This document shows, in pieces, positions 42,656 through 63,800 of a stretch of DNA of 64,000 nt. The position numbers were made by a program, and so were the translations under genes. The notes under the pieces are model-generated. The model ran no database searches. It was not told where the DNA came from and was given only the letters and a program-made list of their open reading frames with translations. Location of the stretch: assembly GCA_964559565.1 (NCBI GenBank), contig CAZLJI010000001.1:24053-88052 (forward strand). The letters run 5' to 3'. Each line of letters starts with the position of its first letter. The stretch's first letter is position 1. The stretch is from an uncultured Ignavibacteriaceae bacterium. Lineage in GTDB: Bacteria > Bacteroidota > Ignavibacteria > Ignavibacteriales > Ignavibacteriaceae.

Positions 42656-43999
<1,344 letters not shown>

Positions 44000-44055: not shown

Positions 44056-44979
44056 CTAAACGTTAGATAGCTCAGAAGCTACACGTTTTATTAATCTTGC
44101 ACCAACCTCTAAAGAGGCATAGTTTTTTGCAATCGTGTCATGAACTAATGCCATAGCTGCTACATGCTCTTTGTCTTCATCGGAAGCAGCACTTTCAGCT
44201 AACTTGCAAACTGATCTTAACTCTTCTAGATAATCTTTAACGAATTCCTCGAACCCCTCTATCACAGAAGATACATTGGAATCTTTAAATCCTTTTGCAT
44301 CATATCCACCGATTGACTCTTCTACCCAAGACCAAATTGTTTTTAGTTTTTCAGAAACTTCATTCAAAGACTCAAGCACGTCTTCATACATGCTGAAAAT
44401 ATTTCCGTCTTTTATTGCTTCTTCGTACTTGGTCTTGGGTGAGTACCTAAATGTTGCACCACTTGCTCCCCAAAGTACCTTGTGAATCACCTTGCTTGAC
44501 TCGGAATATGTTTTTCTCCATGGCCTTTCGGGAGAAAATAATTCGTTTAACCCCATCCTTGCTTCTTCAAGTGGATCTTCGTCTTTTAACAAGTTTCCAG
44601 ATTTAACCAGATCGCGCACCTGGCTTCGTGCTGTTTCAAAATCACCGGACAAAAAAGCAGAAATGGCATTCATCGCTGTTTCTGATAAATACTCTTTTTG
44701 TTCTGCTTTTGTCTTTAATACAGGAACGTCAATTGATTCTACTTTTTGAATCTTTATTTCGTTCCCGTCTCTTCCATAATTGGCTCTATAAAAAGAACCT
44801 TCGCTAGTAGTAACAATTACACTGGAAGGAAAAGTGGAAACAACGGAAATATCATCTGGACCATTAGCGCTAAATAGCTCATATTCCTCACTAACTAAAT
44901 CCTGTAACGATTGAATTGTTTCCTCGTAAGATCCAGATAAAATCTGATTCACCGCACTAGAAGGTATGTATCCTGGCAT
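44056..44979 (-). CDS. hypothetical head-module protein
   Basis: 307-aa ORF, the first gene after the promoter-like 141-nt gap downstream of the portal. Confidence 0.6.
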   Translation of the reverse strand: MPGYIPSSAVNQILSGSYEETIQSLQDLVSEEYELFSANGPDDISVVSTFPSSVIVTTSEGSFYRANYGRDGNEIKIQKVESIDVPVLKTKAEQKEYLSETAMNAISAFLSGDFETARSQVRDLVKSGNLLKDEDPLEEARMGLNELFSPERPWRKTYSESSKVIHKVLWGASGATFRYSPKTKYEEAIKDGNIFSMYEDVLESLNEVSEKLKTIWSWVEESIGGYDAKGFKDSNVSSVIEGFEEFVKDYLEELRSVCKLAESAASDEDKEHVAAMALVHDTIAKNYASLEVGARLIKRVASELSNV

Positions 44980-45120: not shown

Positions 45121-47676
45121 TTACTTTTTTCCTATCGCATGTTTTAGCTCGTTAAAGAATCCTTTTGTTTGAGCTAAATGGTTTCCCATTACACGTTGCT
45201 CGCTAAGCAATCTTCCAAGTTCGTGTTCTACACGCCGCTCATGATCTCTGTTTCCAGAAAATAGGCTTTTCTCTAAATCATTTTTTGAAACATTGAAATT
45301 TCTATACCGAATTGGTCTATTGGGTACACTAACTGCTATTGTTCCTTTGGGATTGCCTGGTACATCAACTGATTCAAACGCACCTTGTTGTTGTGCTGCA
45401 TCTTGTTTCATTTCTTGTCTTTTTTGATCAAATATATTTTCAATCTCTTGATCGCTCATTCCAAACACTTTGCTTAAAATCCAATGCTTTGAAACTAATG
45501 CATCCATCTGTTGTGCAAATTGCGCCCTTGTGTTTTGTACCTCTAGTTGTGCTAGTTCAAAGATAGCCGAAGGCACGGCCATTTTTATATTGAATTCAAT
45601 AAAGGATGGATCTATACCCATTGCAGATAAATGAACTTCTGCAACGTGCCTCATTCCTTCCCTATATTCATTTTGAATTCTTAATACCGCTCTAGAAAAT
45701 CTGACATCTTCAGAGCTATTATGAACAAACACACCAGCTGATAATGCAAAATTGTGATGTTCAATAACTTCAATGTCATATGTATCAATTACTGGACCTT
45801 CTGAAATCGATGAAACATTATAGTTTGATTCAATGTTATCAAAAGATAAAGACTTGAGATTATCACCATGGTTCAAATCACATGCATCAACATAACTCCC
45901 ATCTCTCATCATAAATGGATGATCTGGAGTACATGTTATTTTTTCACCATTATCAAGTTCAACTATAACAGTTTCCGCATTCGCTCTTGTCAGCCTTGGG
46001 TTGATTGCTTTTCCTGGAACAATGTTCCCATTTTTGTCAATACTATAAACCCAATGCTCTCCACCATCATTGGCCATTTGCTCTATTGTTTTTTCGGTTC
46101 CATCAAGAAGTGATATCTTTGTGTCTCCAGCCAAACACAGCGTTGCCCTTGAAGGCATATTTTCATCATATCCAAGATATGCTTTTGGAACTTTTAACGC
46201 CGCAAAAAGTTTAGATCTAAAATATTCTATATCTTCTATCCCGGTCCATGTCGGTGTATTAAGAACATCCGCCCTTACTACTTCTTTTGAATCTCTTACA
46301 GGCAAATAAAAATCTTCATCAGATGAATTCTTGAGATATACACCGGCCGAAACAGCAAAATTGTGATGTTTTTCTATTGTTAATGTATATGTGTCTTCTG
46401 TTTCAACTAGAATGTTTATAGAAGAAACTTTTATTGGATTATCTTTTAATGGCATCAAAAACGATGTATCGCCCAAATATTGTGCCTCTTGATAACTACC
46501 ATCACGCAACATAAATTTATGATCTGGTGTGCATCGAATTTTCTCGCCATTATCAAGAGTTACCTCTACAAGCTCGGCGTTTCCACGTGTCTTGCCAGCC
46601 CAAACTATCTTTCCTGGTACGACCTTATTGCTGTTTTCTCGATCAATAGAATAAACCCAGTTTTCTTTTCCTGACTCATGTTCGGCAATGACATCCTTAA
46701 TCGAGAGTGTTCTACCGTCTAACAATGGAATAGCTGTATCACCCGTTAAACATAGTGGATTATATCTAAGGTTTAACGTTCCTGTTCTTGGATCGACAAA
46801 TTTGTTTTTCTTAAATGTTTGCGAAACACGATGTAAATATTTTTCTGCATCCTGCGGGCTCATTCTTCCAACATCAACATAAAAAGCAAACCTAGAAGGT
46901 GCACGTGATAAACGACTTATTAAAGCTGCATCTTCTAAAAGCATCAATCGCTTCCAAATCCATCTCGCTGGCTCTAATATTCCAAGACCATACATTGCTC
47001 GGCGACGTGCAGAACGGAGTCGCATGAACGCCACTCGCCAAGGTTCAAATAATACAACTCCGCTAGATTGGTCTCTTCCCACACCCCTATCAAATTCTAT
47101 TTTCTCAAATGTTTGAGTAGGAATATTAAAATATCCCTTAAAACTTTGAACGTATCCAACGCAAAGATTGTTGTGGTCTTCTAGTCTTCTAATAGTTGGA
47201 GATGGAAGAAAATTTAATCCCTGTACACCATTCTCATTTACAAGTATTTCCTCTGCTAGTAATCCATACTTGCAAAGCATTCGAATGCTTTCCCATGCCT
47301 CTGAATCTACTTTAACCTTATCCCAGAACATCTTGTTCAATTGTTCCTGAATGTCACCATCTTCACATTCAGTCCAAAGAACATGCCTCATTTGATTGTC
47401 TAAAACTGTGGAATCGTCGCTATAAATATCAAGAGTAGCCGAACACTCAGAATACTCGTCCATTCTTTCATAATCAATAAACCTTGCCATTAAGGCATTA
47501 TCAACCTGAAGTTGATCTGTAATGGACGTATAGCCCATTACCCCGGCAGCATAATTTCCGTCTATATCGTACCGAAGATCATTTATGTTAGCGCCACCTG
47601 AAGCATCATCTAATTCTTTTTTATCCCTAGAAAAAACACTACGGATAAAACCGACAATCTTACTTCCTATCGGCAT
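45121..47676 (-). CDS. portal protein, T4 gp20-like, interrupted by two mini-inteins
   Basis: 851 aa. MYGLGILEPARWIWKRLMLLEDAALISRLSRAPSRFAFYVDVG...LRYNPL / SSDEDFYLPVR...ALKVPKAYLGYDE...RATL / SSEDVRFSRAVLRIQ reproduces the gp20 signature once residues 309-450 and 514-653 are removed, leaving 569 aa. Confidence 0.85.
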   Translation of the reverse strand: MPIGSKIVGFIRSVFSRDKKELDDASGGANINDLRYDIDGNYAAGVMGYTSITDQLQVDNALMARFIDYERMDEYSECSATLDIYSDDSTVLDNQMRHVLWTECEDGDIQEQLNKMFWDKVKVDSEAWESIRMLCKYGLLAEEILVNENGVQGLNFLPSPTIRRLEDHNNLCVGYVQSFKGYFNIPTQTFEKIEFDRGVGRDQSSGVVLFEPWRVAFMRLRSARRRAMYGLGILEPARWIWKRLMLLEDAALISRLSRAPSRFAFYVDVGRMSPQDAEKYLHRVSQTFKKNKFVDPRTGTLNLRYNPLCLTGDTAIPLLDGRTLSIKDVIAEHESGKENWVYSIDRENSNKVVPGKIVWAGKTRGNAELVEVTLDNGEKIRCTPDHKFMLRDGSYQEAQYLGDTSFLMPLKDNPIKVSSINILVETEDTYTLTIEKHHNFAVSAGVYLKNSSDEDFYLPVRDSKEVVRADVLNTPTWTGIEDIEYFRSKLFAALKVPKAYLGYDENMPSRATLCLAGDTKISLLDGTEKTIEQMANDGGEHWVYSIDKNGNIVPGKAINPRLTRANAETVIVELDNGEKITCTPDHPFMMRDGSYVDACDLNHGDNLKSLSFDNIESNYNVSSISEGPVIDTYDIEVIEHHNFALSAGVFVHNSSEDVRFSRAVLRIQNEYREGMRHVAEVHLSAMGIDPSFIEFNIKMAVPSAIFELAQLEVQNTRAQFAQQMDALVSKHWILSKVFGMSDQEIENIFDQKRQEMKQDAAQQQGAFESVDVPGNPKGTIAVSVPNRPIRYRNFNVSKNDLEKSLFSGNRDHERRVEHELGRLLSEQRVMGNHLAQTKGFFNELKHAIGKK
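45718..46137 (-). mobile_element. mini-intein 2 in portal (140 aa, no endonuclease domain)
   Basis: Starts CLAGDTKISLLDG, has TPDHPF and ends HHNFALSAGVFVHN, followed by Ser +1. It is clearly related to intein 1 (WVYSID, VPGK, LDNGEKIxCTPDHxFMxRDGSY). Confidence 0.85.
46327..46752 (-). mobile_element. mini-intein 1 in portal (142 aa, no endonuclease domain)
   Basis: Starts CLTGDTAIPLLDG (block A), has TPDHKF (block B) and ends HHNFAVSAGVYLKN, followed by Ser +1. The penultimate residue is Lys rather than His. Confidence 0.8.
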
Positions 47677-47846: not shown

Positions 47847-48044
47847 TTAGTCATTTATTTCTTTCATGTCTATATAGCATGAAATGCATGTATTCTTGTC
47901 TTCTAAACAGTCATTGCAAACTATATGATTACACTTTTCACAAGAACGCAAACACAAAAAACAAAGACTCTTTCCACAATGAACACAATTGCCGTATGGT
48001 CCACTAGCTGAATCTCCACAATAAAAACAACCAAATTTTTCCAT
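47847..48044 (-). CDS. small Cys-rich zinc-binding protein (six CxxC pairs)
   Basis: 65 aa with CFYC, CVHC, CFLC, CEKC, CNDC and CISC. Confidence 0.5.
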   Translation of the reverse strand: MEKFGCFYCGDSASGPYGNCVHCGKSLCFLCLRSCEKCNHIVCNDCLEDKNTCISCYIDMKEIND

Positions 48045-60819: not shown

Positions 60820-63800
60820 AACTTCGCACTTTCATATCGCGGTATGATGGCACCATATGTACCATCTGCCGTGAAAAAGTTCCGCTTGGATCCGAGATTG
60901 CGCTTATCCCTGATTCGATTCGGCTCACGTGGCATGAGTTTGGCCTTTGTGGGAAAGTCCACAAGTATGCCCACACCACGTGCTTGCCCCACATAATAGA
61001 CATCACCTATAGACCATTTATCGCCGAAGCAACGACCAAACTGCTACATGATACCGATCCAAACTGGCCTAAAGACGACATTGGATTTAATGCCGCAGAT
61101 TTTTATTTTGCGCAACGTGTTCATTCAAACAGCTATCCAGAATTTTGCCTCCATGAGCTGGCAAAAAGACTACAAAAATACATAAATACACAACTCGGCG
61201 GAAATGAGTCAGAACTAGGAAAAGGGATTATTTCTGCCGCGGAAGCAATCGAAAAAGAACCGCACCCGGATGCGCAGTCAGAACGATTGGAGCGAACAGA
61301 ACAAAAAGAAATAGCAGAAACAAAAGAACTAAAAACCATCACGCTTCCAGGTGACATAACATTTGCCATTCACCCAACATCTATCCCCAAAAAAATATTC
61401 ATAAACACCCTCCCGCAAAATACCTTTTCCGTTACGCTCGAACCTCCTTGGATAAACAAGTCTCACGAAATAGTAAAAGAAAACATAAAGCATTGTGGTG
61501 CAAGATGGAACAAAGAACTCAAGGTATGGACCATGAGCGAAGCACAATTAGTCCACGCTCTTGATACCGCCATGCAAAAACAAGATATCATTGTCACTCC
61601 CAGTGCTGCCGGTGCATTGCATGGTGTGCTAACTAGACGTGCACTCGCCACGACAATAGATGATACAGGACTGGACACAATAAAAGAAAAATTAAAAGAA
61701 GCACTCCCAGAAGGAAAAAATCTTTATCCGTTCCAGGTTGCATGCGTCGCATTTTTGGAAGCTGCTCGCGGAAATGCTCTTATTGCAGACGAGATGGGGT
61801 GCGGAAAAACCCTTGAATCAATCGCATACCTTGCAACACAACCAGAACTTCGTCCGGCCGTCGTAGTTGTGCCTGCAATCGTTGCCGGAAACTGGCAAAA
61901 AGAATTTAAAGGATGGACGAAAAACGAAAAAATCCAAAGAATAAAAACAGGCAAAGATAAAATCGAAAGAGATAATTCTATTATCATTATCACTTACGAT
62001 TTGCTGAAAAAACATGCACAAACAATTGTCGGATTAAATCCAAAAGCAATCATAGCAGACGAATGTTTTCCAGGGAACACCAATGTTCAAACAAAAAATG
62101 GAAAAATGACAATAAAAAGTATCGTTGAATCCAATGATGAAATATTGGTTAAATCATATGACTTTAACTTAAAAAAAATTGTGTTTAAGCCTGTTGTTGG
62201 AAAAATAAAAATTAAAAAAAATGGACATTTAATAAAATTAACACATGATTATGGAGAAATAATATGCACTCCAAATCATAAAATATGGACAAAGGAAAGA
62301 GGATACATTGAAGCAGAAAAGATCAAAAGTGGAGAAACACTGCGAACGGTGCGGGAAGAAATTTCAAACACCCAAAAAAGGGAAGGCAACAGCAAGATTT
62401 TGCTCTCGGTCATGCGCATCAAAGCATTCTCTTTCAAAAAAAGAAACAAAAGAAAAATTAAGGTTAGCACTAACAAAAAAAATATATATATCATGCGAAA
62501 TATGCAAAAAAATTTTTACTATAAAGCCAAGCAGGAAGCAAAGATTTTGCAGTACAAGTTGCTCGGCGAAATGGAGAACAAGTCTTCCCTATATAAAAGC
62601 CATATCATCAAAAACAGTACAAAAGATGATTCAATCAAATATAGGAAGAAAAAATCCATCTGCATCAAAAAGAATGAAAAGAATGAACCAAGATCCGGAA
62701 TTCAGAAAAAAAGCATTAGAAGGAACAATAAAAAGACACAAAGAAAACCCATCTTTCTTAAAAAGAGGCGGAAAGCCAATGATAACAGTTCCGCAAAAAA
62801 TGTTATTAGACCAACTTGGATATCCGCTAGAGTGGCTAGAATACAAAATAGTATTAGGAAAAAAGAAAAAAGAATTAGAATCTACAGAAAACAAAGACCT
62901 AAAATCACTTCCAAATTTTTACTCTGTAGACATAGTGCATCTACCATCAAAAACAGCCATAGAAGTAGACGGAGAAACTCACAAATCCAAAAAATGGCAA
63001 TGGATAGACAGAAGAAAAAAAATTGTATTGGAGAGTCTCGGGTGGCAAGTGTTGAGGTTCTGGAACAAAGATATATTGACGAACATGGAATTTGTTGTGA
63101 CAACAATAAATTCGTTTATAACCTCGAAGTAAAAGACACGCATAATTATATTGCTGATAATGTATTAGTTTCAAATTGTCAATTTCTCAAAAACTCAAAA
63201 AGCCAGCGCACGGAAGTGTTCATGGCAGTTGCAAAAACAAAATCAATTCGATCTACGATTGGTCTTTCCGGTACCCCTATTGTGAATCGACCAATAGAAT
63301 TTTACCCTATGTTAAAACTTCTCAGACCTGCTGATTTTTCTAATTGGAAATTTTTTACCAAACGTTATTGCTCTGGTCACTATGAAACAATTTACATCGC
63401 CCGTGGACACGGTGCTACAAAATCAGTTTGGGTTTGTTCCGGATCAAGCAACGAAAAAGAACTATCATCCAGAATCAAGGACGTGATGATTCGACGTTTG
63501 AAAAAAGACGTTCTGTCCGAACTACCACCGAAGCACCGCAATTCAATTGAAATTGAAATCTCATCAGCCGAAAGAGATGAATACAATAATATCGTTGAAT
63601 CTTGTTACACCGGAGAACCTGGAGACCATCTCGCCGCAATCAATTGTGCTAGACAACTAGTCGGAAAATACAAAGCACAAAAAGCACTTGATCTAATCGA
63701 CATGTATATGGACCAGAACCAACCTCTCCTTGTCTTTGCGCATCACCACGAAGTAATGAATAAACTCGAAGAGGAAATCAAAGGGAAGTATAGTTACGGA

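What the first reader, a model, noticed from the sequence alone, without database searches (positions are those of the whole stretch)
45718..46752. Two related mini-inteins in one gp20-like portal gene, inserted at look-alike sites
Portal residues 309-450 and 514-653 are Hint-only inteins (CLTGDT...TPDHKF...VYLKN|S and CLAGDT...TPDHPF...VFVHN|S). Neither has an endonuclease domain. They are clearly paralogous to each other: WVYSID, VPGK, LDNGEKIxCTPDHxFMxRDGSY, HHNFAxSAGV. The two insertion contexts are also alike: YNPL|SSDEDF and RATL|SSEDVRF. Both have Leu at -1 and Ser-Ser-(Asp)-Glu-Asp after the junction. This suggests ectopic spread of one mini-intein to a second site in the same gene, which is unexpected for an element that cannot home by itself. 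Intein 1 has Lys instead of the usual penultimate His. With the helicase intein, this window holds three inteins.
Basis: partly seen in the sequence, partly recalled or inferred. Interest (0 to 1): 0.7.

Follow-up and report, generated by a model that had tools for sequence, protein, structure and literature searches.

The report
Two mini-inteins in phage portal gene
The portal (head-entry) gene of an uncultured phage carries two small self-excising protein inserts, but these are ordinary descendants of two separate, widespread endonuclease-carrying intein lineages, not a copy-and-paste of one crippled element within the gene.

Summary
The 851-aa gp20-type portal ORF (45121-47676, minus strand) holds two Hint-only inteins at residues 309-450 and 514-653. 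Both have Cys1, TxxH, terminal Asn and Ser+1. Removing both gives a 569-aa protein that matches Pfam Portal_T4 end to end and has the length of the nearest intein-free relatives.

The interpretation, that a mini-intein spread ectopically within the gene, is not supported.
- Intein 1's closest relatives (up to 70% identity) are inteins at the same site, 308|309, in other portals. Intein 2's closest relatives (up to 73%) sit at 371|372. Most of these are full-length, with an HNH endonuclease domain.
- The two window inteins are only 55% identical and are never sisters (0/100 bootstraps).
- They resemble each other no more than they resemble same-family inteins in GyrA, RtcB or baseplate genes.
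- Their synonymous sites are saturated.

The best reading is two independent invasions by endonuclease-bearing inteins, each followed by loss of the endonuclease.

The penultimate Lys is a trait of the site-308 lineage (43 of 73), not decay.

gp20-type portals turn out to be an intein hotspot, with about 12 insertion sites and up to six inserts per gene. A double-intein portal is therefore a new member of a known kind.

The parts
45121..47676 (-). Portal precursor ORF, gp20/Portal_T4 type. 851 aa plus stop, predicted 96.6 kDa.
   Evidence: The identical protein P0001 is on record in public assemblies.
46753..47676 (-). N-extein, portal residues 1-308, ending ..LRYNPL.
46327..46752 (-). Intein 1, residues 309-450 (142 aa, 15.9 kDa). 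Mini-intein of the site-308 lineage. Key residues: Cys309, Thr383/His386 (block B), Thr431 (block F:4), Lys449, Asn450.
   Evidence: Pfam PF14890 59.4 bits. AlphaFold pLDDT 97.2, with HINT-fold matches at TM 0.85-0.90. Nearest relatives are all site-308 inteins.
46138..46326 (-). Middle extein, residues 451-513. It starts with the Ser451 nucleophile (SSDEDF..) and ends ..PSRATL.
45718..46137 (-). Intein 2, residues 514-653 (140 aa, 15.3 kDa). Mini-intein of the site-371 lineage. Key residues: Cys514, Thr583/His586, Asp634 (F:4), His652, Asn653.
   Evidence: Pfam PF14890 60.3 bits. 73% identical to the full-length P0012 intein at the same site, and sister to it in 81/100 bootstraps.
45124..45717 (-). 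C-extein, residues 654-851, starting with the Ser654 nucleophile (SSEDVRF..).

Best explanation
The portal gene carries two class-1 mini-inteins that were acquired separately.

Origin (inferred from phylogeny). An HNH-endonuclease-bearing intein specific for portal site 308|309 invaded the ancestral gene by homing during co-infection. This site lies in the clip domain and corresponds to T4 gp20 M328|S329. A second intein, specific for site 371|372, invaded independently. That site is at the end of the tunnel loop, T4 I396|T397. Once each site was occupied the endonuclease had no target left. It was then deleted, independently in each intein, at the structural boundary between the ..SLMPL strand and the ..NHKVxS strand. 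What remains are 142- and 140-aa HINT domains.

Function (inferred from residues and from the gene being essential; not shown experimentally). The 96.6-kDa precursor splices twice:
1. N-S acyl shift at Cys309 and Cys514.
2. Transesterification to Ser451 and Ser654.
3. Cyclisation of Asn450 and Asn653.
4. O-N shift.
This yields a 65.4-kDa, 569-aa portal that can form the dodecamer. The occupied sites also make the gene immune to cleavage by cognate endonucleases of co-infecting phages.
For: Anatomy.
- Coordinates and junction residues are as described.
- Each intein passes Pfam's threshold alone, and the extein restores a single end-to-end Portal_T4 match.
- The nearest portals, at 54-60% identity, are intein-free and 567-590 aa long, which matches the predicted 569 aa.

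Fold. The intein 1 model has pLDDT 97.2. It matches Npu DnaE, NrdJ-1 and Ssp DnaB mini-inteins at TM 0.85-0.90.

Orthology by site.
- In 243 family inteins mapped onto extein coordinates, the nearest neighbours of intein 1 are almost all site-308 inteins (7 of the top 7, 20 of the top 25), and the top 10 neighbours of intein 2 are all site-371 inteins.
- The NJ tree groups inteins by site. int1+int2 are sisters in 0/100 bootstraps, and int2+P0012 in 81/100.

Endonuclease ancestry and loss.
- Full-length relatives at both sites share a homologous HNH/NUMOD-type middle domain that is missing precisely from the window inteins.
- 48 of 73 site-308 inteins and 12 of 23 site-371 inteins are full-length.
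- Mini forms are scattered over the tree with unrelated residual linkers, so loss is recurrent.

Horizontal spread. Intein identity of 64-73% exceeds extein identity of 29-53% in the same protein pairs.

Age. 4-fold sites are 9/22 identical, the longest shared DNA word is 16 nt, and GC/GC3 of the inteins equals that of the extein.

Functional sites. The insertion points map to the clip domain and the tunnel-loop/helix-alpha8 junction of T4 gp20 (domain limits from PMC4493910).
Against: - Splicing is not demonstrated. Intein 1 lacks the usual penultimate His (it has Lys449) and the usual block-F Asp (it has Thr431). Both are common in its lineage.
- Tree support around intein 1 is modest. Its exact sister P0168 is recovered in only 32/100 bootstraps, although its smallest clade is purely site-308 in most replicates.
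- The tree is NJ on 121 columns, not ML.
- The set of 150 representatives is biased toward intein carriers, because the query contained inteins.
- No close (>60% identity) relative of this phage exists in the databases, so the time and order of endonuclease loss cannot be dated.
Confidence: 0.8

Rival explanations
1. First reader's model. One endonuclease-less mini-intein was copied ectopically from one portal site to the other look-alike site (L|SS.ED) within this gene or lineage.
For: - The two inteins are homologous: 48-55% identity, E 2e-40.
- Both sites have Leu-1, Ser+1 and Ser+2. Over -1..+4, site 2 is the best match to site 1 in the extein.
- The family consensus at both empty sites is L|SQ(D)ED.
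- Site 371 is the nearest other-site lineage to site 308: mean identity 0.46 against 0.34-0.42 for the others.
Against: - The two are never sisters (0/100).
- Each is 15-18 points closer to same-site, mostly HNH-bearing inteins of other portals.
- They are no closer to each other than to GyrA, RtcB or baseplate-W inteins of the same family.
- Synonymous sites are saturated and there is no long shared DNA word.
- The DNA contexts are not similar (12/30).
- The profile similarity of the sites falls to rank 6-16 once the window is widened beyond -1..+3.
Confidence: 0.04
2. Deep-time version of the jump. An HNH-bearing ancestor switched between sites 308 and 371 of the portal gene by exploiting the shared L|SQ(D)ED context. 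This founded the two site lineages, and the window later received one member of each.
For: - The consensus contexts are alike and are the rank-1 match over -1..+3.
- A second group of site-371 inteins (P0170, P0289, P0206; 82-88% support) never joins the core site-371 clade (0/100). It sits among site-308 inteins instead.
- Extein or site switching through look-alike sites is documented for actinophage inteins (bioRxiv 10.1101/2025.01.02.630785).
Against: - Between-site identities are nearly star-like. Site 371 is as close to site 336 as to site 308.
- Non-portal inteins of the family are equally close, so the sites may each have been colonised from a wider pool.
- No target-site DNA is available for the relatives.
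- The deep nodes of the NJ tree are weak.
Confidence: 0.3
3. One or both inserts are decayed, non-splicing Hint remnants. The portal either tolerates them as domains or is non-functional.
For: Intein 1 has Lys instead of the penultimate His and Thr instead of the block-F Asp. No experimental data exist.
Against: - All nucleophiles and the block-B TxxH are intact in both inteins.
- Lys (43/73) and Thr or Cys at F:4 (18 and 26 of 73) are lineage norms in intact ORFs of an essential gene.
- The model is a complete, compact HINT fold.
- The sites lie in the clip domain and at the tunnel loop, where T4 mutations abolish or truncate DNA packaging (clip-domain substitutions, tunnel-loop deletion; PMC4493910). 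A 140-aa insert there is therefore unlikely to be tolerated.
- The ORF is open across 851 codons.
Confidence: 0.08

Closest known systems
Inteins of actinobacteriophage portal and large-terminase genes (Kelley et al. 2016, PMC5050341; Gosselin, Arsenault & Gogarten 2025, bioRxiv 10.1101/2025.01.02.630785)
   Same: - Inteins sit in essential virion-assembly genes.
- There are several distinct insertion sites per gene. TerL1 has five sites, and portal inteins are polyphyletic.
- Inteins spread between phages by homing.
- The endonuclease decays to leave mini-inteins.
- Site or extein switching occurs through look-alike sequence.
   Different: - The host here is a T4 gp20-type portal (PF07230) of an uncultured, AT-rich phage.
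- The ancestral endonuclease is HNH-type rather than the predominant LAGLIDADG.
- Two inteins occupy one portal.
- I found no paper describing gp20-type portals as intein hosts. The literature search covers open-access text only.
Natural and engineered mini-inteins: Npu DnaE (4KL5), NrdJ-1 (8UBS), Ssp DnaB mini-intein (1MI8)
   Same: Compact HINT fold of about 140 residues without an endonuclease domain. TM 0.84-0.90 to the intein 1 model, 25-30% identity. Class-1 residue set: Cys1, TxxH, terminal Asn.
   Different: The window inteins are contiguous, not split. They use Ser+1. Intein 1 has Lys rather than His before the terminal Asn, and Thr at block F:4.
Multi-intein genes, such as the crAss-like phage TerL with two Hint-Hop inteins (Yutin et al. 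2021, PMC7886860)
   Same: Two inteins in frame in one essential phage packaging or assembly gene. That paper describes a density of up to three inteins per genome as unprecedentedly high, and this 64-kb window also has three.
   Different: Different host gene and intein type. Both inteins here have lost the endonuclease.
In-frame HNH-endonuclease inteins (Dalgaard et al. 1997, as cited in bioRxiv 10.1101/2025.01.02.630785)
   Same: The full-length same-site relatives of both window inteins carry an in-frame HNH_3/NUMOD3-type domain.
   Different: The window copies retain none of that domain.

Membership tests
Intein (class 1 protein-splicing element) | Sequence homology to the intein/Hint splicing domain | tested here: met
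   PF14890 at 59.4 bits (intein 1) and 60.3 bits (intein 2) against a gathering score of 35.8, each scanned alone. PDB sequence hits to DnaE and NrdJ-1 inteins, E 8e-12.
Intein (class 1 protein-splicing element) | HINT fold | tested here: met
   Intein 1 AlphaFold model has pLDDT 97.2 and pTM 0.89. Foldseek top hits are Npu DnaE, NrdJ-1 and Ssp DnaB inteins at TM 0.84-0.90. Intein 2 was not modelled; it is 48-55% identical to intein 1.
Intein (class 1 protein-splicing element) | Catalytic set: Cys/Ser/Thr at position 1, block-B TxxH, C-terminal Asn, Cys/Ser/Thr at +1 | tested here: met
   Intein 1: C309, T383/H386, N450, S451. Intein 2: C514, T583/H586, N653, S654.
Intein (class 1 protein-splicing element) | Penultimate His (block G) and Asp at block F:4. 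These are usual but not obligatory. | tested here: inconclusive
   Intein 2 has H652 and D634. Intein 1 has K449 and T431. In site-308 inteins Lys is penultimate in 43/73, and F:4 is Cys in 26, Thr in 18 and Asp in 5. These are therefore lineage traits, but their effect on splicing is untested.
Intein (class 1 protein-splicing element) | In-frame insertion in a conserved host motif; excision restores a contiguous host protein | tested here: met
   The extein gives a single Portal_T4 match, 5-433 of 433. The junctions restore the family consensus PL|SQDEDF and VL|SQEDVRF. Intein-free relatives are 567-590 aa.
Intein (class 1 protein-splicing element) | Demonstrated protein splicing | not testable with these tools
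   Needs expression followed by MS or Western blot. Expected sizes are 96.6 kDa going to 65.4 + 15.9 + 15.3 kDa.
Mini-intein (endonuclease-less) | No homing-endonuclease domain between blocks B and F | tested here: met
   Lengths are 142 and 140 aa, with no endonuclease family in Pfam. Alignment with same-site full-length inteins shows the roughly 225-260-aa HNH/NUMOD region is absent. No homologue of that domain occurs anywhere in the window.
   Ranks 35 and 17 of 242. Sisters in 0/100 bootstraps. Equal similarity to inteins of other genes.
   4-fold sites are 9/22 identical and the longest shared word is 16 nt. The +-15-nt contexts are 12/30 identical, and 157 of 1679 positions score as well.
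T4 gp20-type portal protein (PF07230) | End-to-end match to the family profile, and a position in a head-morphogenesis module | tested here: met
   231.6 bits, positions 5-433 of 433. PDB hits to T4 gp20 (3JA7, 6UZC), E about 3e-23. The head maturation protease and major head protein lie downstream on the same strand.

The most novel reading that the evidence does not exclude
gp20-type portal genes may be the densest intein hotspot yet seen. They show about a dozen recurrent insertion sites and up to six inteins in one gene, populated largely by one HNH-intein family that needs Ser at +1. The family may have moved repeatedly between sites of the same gene, including the look-alike pair L|SQDED (308) and L|SQED (371). 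On this reading the window's double mini-intein portal is the burnt-out, endonuclease-immune end state of two such lineages.
Probability: 0.4. Interest if true: 0.55.

Novelty: new member of a known kind. Interest (0 to 1): 0.33.

Why it matters
For this window the result is mainly annotation. The true portal is 569 aa (65.4 kDa), not 851 aa. A gene caller or structure predictor that ignores the inteins will misdescribe it.

The apparent paradox of a mini-intein that moved without an endonuclease dissolves once relatives are examined. The locus instead illustrates the homing cycle twice in one gene: invasion, fixation, then endonuclease loss.

The wider by-product is more useful. The gp20 portal family offers hundreds of natural, compact (140-150 aa), Ser+1 mini-inteins. 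It also offers a natural series of site-308 inteins with Lys at the penultimate position and Thr or Cys at block F:4. These could interest protein engineers and people who study splicing mechanisms.

Tried and rejected
- Megablast of the portal gene against 50,697 phage records found nothing. The best cultured relative is about 35% identical at the protein level, so no near relative was available to date the endonuclease loss.
- The word-indexed protein search with the two-intein alignment returned only 136 candidates, all short fragments, and did not recover even the query protein. It served only as a source of non-portal family members.
- DNA-level similarity of the two insertion contexts is not above background.
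- A trans-acting, free-standing homologue of the HNH middle domain was not found in the window; all E-values were above 0.2.
- Co-occurrence of site-308 and site-371 inteins is not enriched: 7 portals observed against about 10.8 expected from 73 and 23 of 155.
- Gene conversion or a mosaic origin was considered. Both the N and C parts of each intein are closer to same-site orthologues, and no long identical DNA run exists.
- Foreign composition of the inteins was checked. GC and GC3 equal those of the extein.
Full report
**Observation**

The minus-strand ORF at 45121-47676 encodes 851 aa. Residues 309-450 are CLTGDT...VYLKN, followed by Ser451 (window 46327-46752). Residues 514-653 are CLAGDT...VFVHN, followed by Ser654 (window 45718-46137).

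The whole protein hits Pfam Portal_T4 in three broken stretches, plus Intein_splicing. Scanned alone, each insert passes Pfam's curated threshold for Intein_splicing (59.4 and 60.3 bits against 35.8). Neither shows an endonuclease family. The 569-aa product of removing both inserts gives one uninterrupted Portal_T4 match, positions 5-433 of 433, at 231.6 bits.

The catalytic residues are complete:
- Intein 1: C309, T383/H386, N450, S451.
- Intein 2: C514, T583/H586, N653, S654.

Intein 1 has Lys449 and Thr431 where His and Asp are usual. An AlphaFold model of intein 1 has pLDDT 97.2. It superposes on Npu DnaE, NrdJ-1 and Ssp DnaB mini-inteins at TM 0.84-0.90. The two inteins are 48% identical by BLASTP, E 2e-40.

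**Genomic setting**

The gene sits in a standard head module on the minus strand. The order is portal, two unassigned ORFs (one very acidic), head maturation protease, then major head protein.

The phage is uncultured. There is no nucleotide match among 50,697 phage records, and the best cultured portal (Flavobacterium phage immuto) is about 35% identical. The identical protein is on record in public assemblies.

**Relatives with 0, 1, 2 or more inteins**

A search with the spliced extein found the nearest portals, at 54-60% identity, to be intein-free and 567-590 aa long. Among the 120 best clusters only seven carry an intein domain, and only the window's protein has two.

The six other carriers were decisive:
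- P0012 and P0065 have a 378-387-aa intein at exactly the site of intein 2 (..ATL|C...HN|S.ED.RF).
- P0111 has a 400-aa intein at the site of intein 1 (..PL|...VKN|SQDDDF).
- P0010, P0033 and P0095 have about 335-aa inteins at a third site (..CS|C...HN|SAL.IYADD).

Aligned together, all share a homologous middle domain with an HNH motif and NUMOD-like basic repeats. The two window inteins are these same inteins with that middle removed, between ..LMPL/LKSL and [I/N]KVSSI/NVSSI. Pfam calls the domain HNH_3. The score is above threshold inside the site-308 intein of P0187 and the site-79 inteins of P0167 and P0168. It is below threshold in P0012.

**Exhaustive search and site mapping**

phmmer of the precursor against 1.84 billion cluster representatives returned gp20-type portals up to 2,818 aa long. 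I built an HMM whose positions are the window's extein coordinates and mapped every insert of at least 100 aa.

Of 155 portals, the insert counts were:

| Inserts per portal | Portals |
|---|---|
| 0 | 11 |
| 1 | 59 |
| 2 | 54 |
| 3 | 26 |
| 4 | 4 |
| 6 | 1 |

The inserts lie at about a dozen recurrent positions: roughly 64, 79, 86-92, 130-140, 180-186, 232, 253-256, 297, 308/309, 336/337, 364-366 and 371/372. This sample is enriched for carriers because the query contained inteins.

With HMMs of the N- and C-terminal splicing regions I paired 243 inteins of this family. Of these, 197 start with Cys, 235 end with Asn and 202 are followed by Ser. By site:
- Site 308 holds 73 inteins: 48 full-length, 21 mini, 4 intermediate.
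- Site 371 holds 23 inteins: 12 full-length, 7 mini, 4 intermediate.

Seven portals carry family inteins at both sites, in every combination of full and mini. About 10.8 would be expected by chance.

**Test of the interpretation**

If a mini-intein had been copied within this gene, the two window inteins should be each other's closest relatives. They are not.

- Over 121 aligned splicing-domain columns, intein 1 is 70% identical to the 366-aa site-308 intein of P0168 and 68% identical to the site-308 mini-intein of P0167. Its seven closest neighbours, and 20 of its 25 closest, are site-308 inteins.
- Intein 2 is 73% identical to the 378-aa site-371 intein of P0012. Its next nine neighbours are all site-371 inteins.
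- The two window inteins are 55% identical to each other and rank 35th and 17th of 242.
- In an NJ tree with 100 bootstraps, inteins group by site. int1+int2 are sisters in 0/100 replicates and int2+P0012 in 81/100. The smallest clade around intein 1 is purely site-308 in most replicates.
- Same-family inteins in unrelated genes (GyrA, RtcB, a gp25-like baseplate protein) are 0.51-0.56 identical to either window intein. The window pair scores 0.54 on the same N-terminal columns, so their resemblance is only family background.
- At the DNA level, third-position identity is 43%, 4-fold sites are 9/22 identical and the longest shared word is 16 nt. There is no recent duplication or gene conversion.
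- Intein identity (64-73%) exceeds extein identity (29-53%) in the same protein pairs, as expected for elements that move horizontally.
- Mini-inteins are scattered through both site clades and have unrelated residual linkers, so endonuclease loss is frequent and independent.
- GC and GC3 of the inteins equal those of the extein.

**The look-alike sites**

In this window the contexts share Leu-1, Ser+1 and Ser+2. Over -1..+4, site 2 is the best match to site 1 in the extein. The DNA contexts, however, are no more alike than 9% of random positions.

In 113 intein-free portals the consensus is ..PL|SQDEDF.. and ..VL|SQEDVRF... A profile comparison ranks site 371 first against site 308 only for -1..+3, and by a narrow margin (1.87 against 1.82). 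It ranks 6th to 16th for wider windows.

Ser+1 is near-universal for this intein family at all sites, so part of the likeness is a splicing requirement. Site 371 is the nearest other-site lineage to site 308 (0.46), but site 371 is just as close to site 336. A second small group of site-371 inteins (P0170, P0289, P0206) sits among site-308 inteins.

An ancient switch between the two sites by an endonuclease-bearing intein therefore remains possible; I put it at about 0.3. It is not shown, and it is not what the finding proposed.

**Lys449**

Lys is the commonest penultimate residue at site 308 (43/73). All 23 site-371 inteins have His. Block F:4 at site 308 is Cys in 26, Thr in 18 and Asp in 5, whereas it is Asp in 22 of 23 at site 371. 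Lys449 and Thr431 are thus inherited lineage traits in intact ORFs of an essential gene. They are not signs of decay.

**Position in the portal**

Alignment to solved T4-type portals, read with the domain limits of Sun et al. 2015 (PMC4493910), places the two sites as follows:
- Site 308 lies at T4 M328|S329, in the clip domain (279-358), just before the inner clip loop.
- Site 371 lies at I396|T397, the C-terminal end of the tunnel loop (374-398), just before the bent helix alpha8.

Both are regions where T4 mutations impair DNA packaging (clip-domain substitutions abolish it; a tunnel-loop deletion prevents full-length packaging), so unspliced precursor is unlikely to assemble. This inference is the main argument that both inteins are active.

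**Comparison with what is known**

The following are all described:
- portal and terminase inteins in actinophages
- several intein sites per gene
- polyphyly of portal inteins
- extein switching through look-alike sites
- in-frame HNH inteins
- decay of full inteins to mini-inteins
- crAss-like phage genes with two inteins

I found no open-access paper on inteins in gp20-type portals. The window's locus is therefore a new member of a known kind.

**Verdict**

This is a real double mini-intein portal. The proposed unexpected mobility of an endonuclease-less element is not needed and is contradicted by the phylogeny. Interest for this finding is modest. The hotspot behaviour of the gp20 portal family and the helicase intein's out-of-frame endonuclease (listed under things noticed in passing) are the more interesting leads.

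Noticed in passing
window 62064-63176 (+), helicase intein; alternate-frame ORF 62263-63129 (first start codon TTG at 62308): The third intein (SNF2 helicase, ADE|CFPGNT...VLVSN|CQFLKN, 371 aa) has a Lys/Arg-rich middle in its own frame with no domain hit. A different forward frame, spanning exactly block B to block F, encodes two zinc-finger-like motifs plus a DUF559/Vsr-like endonuclease (PF04480, 48 bits against cutoff 20.6). Both frames are open over 867 nt and the third has 33 stops. In 0 of 5000 synonymous shuffles of the endonuclease frame does the intein frame stay open, so this is selected dual coding. The same out-of-frame arrangement occurs inside the annotated DNA helicase of Vibrio phage K391 (OZ196571.1); homologues also hit about 40 other phage records, mostly Vibrio. 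A 2025 preprint (10.1101/2025.01.02.630785) reports antisense VSR-like and out-of-frame EndoVII-like endonucleases in actinophage inteins. A same-strand, out-of-frame VSR-like one is not listed there.
   Followed up: partly
related proteins P0167-P0313 (no window coordinates); e.g. P0187, 2599 aa: gp20-type portals are a heavy intein hotspot, with about 12 recurrent insertion positions. 85 of 155 representatives carry two or more large inserts. P0187 has six, all with Hint or intein Pfam signals, and both HNH and LAGLIDADG endonuclease types are present. The sample is biased toward carriers. I did not find this described in the searchable literature.
   Followed up: partly
related proteins, site-308 inteins (e.g. 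P0111 residues 318-717): 22 of 73 site-308 portal inteins start with Pro instead of Cys. They have Ala, Glu or Asp (Ala in 18 of 22) instead of the block-B Thr and Lys or Arg before the terminal Asn, and those inspected (P0111 and five mini forms) carry Cys at block F:4 (..[FY]CM[TN]V..). This looks like a class-3-like, block-F-nucleophile solution without the full WCT signature. Cys1 inteins at the same site often already have Cys at F:4 (22 of 51), which suggests a transitional series.
   Followed up: partly
related proteins P0170 (740-1245), P0289 (301-762), P0206 (836-978): A second group of site-371 inteins (82-88% bootstrap as a group) never joins the core site-371 clade (0/100). It sits among site-308 inteins. 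This hints at at least one real switch between the two look-alike sites by a full-length, 460-506-aa intein.
   Followed up: partly
window 42656-43999 (-) and 44056-44979 (-): Two ORFs lie between the portal and the head protease and have no PHROG match. The 447-aa one has a run of about 14 Asp and Lys/Ala-rich repeats, which looks scaffold-like.
   Followed up: no
window 47847-48044 (-): A 65-aa ORF immediately upstream of the portal has four CxxC pairs (CFYCGD...CVHCG...CLRSCEKCNHIVCNDC...CISC). It is probably a small zinc-ribbon protein.
   Followed up: no
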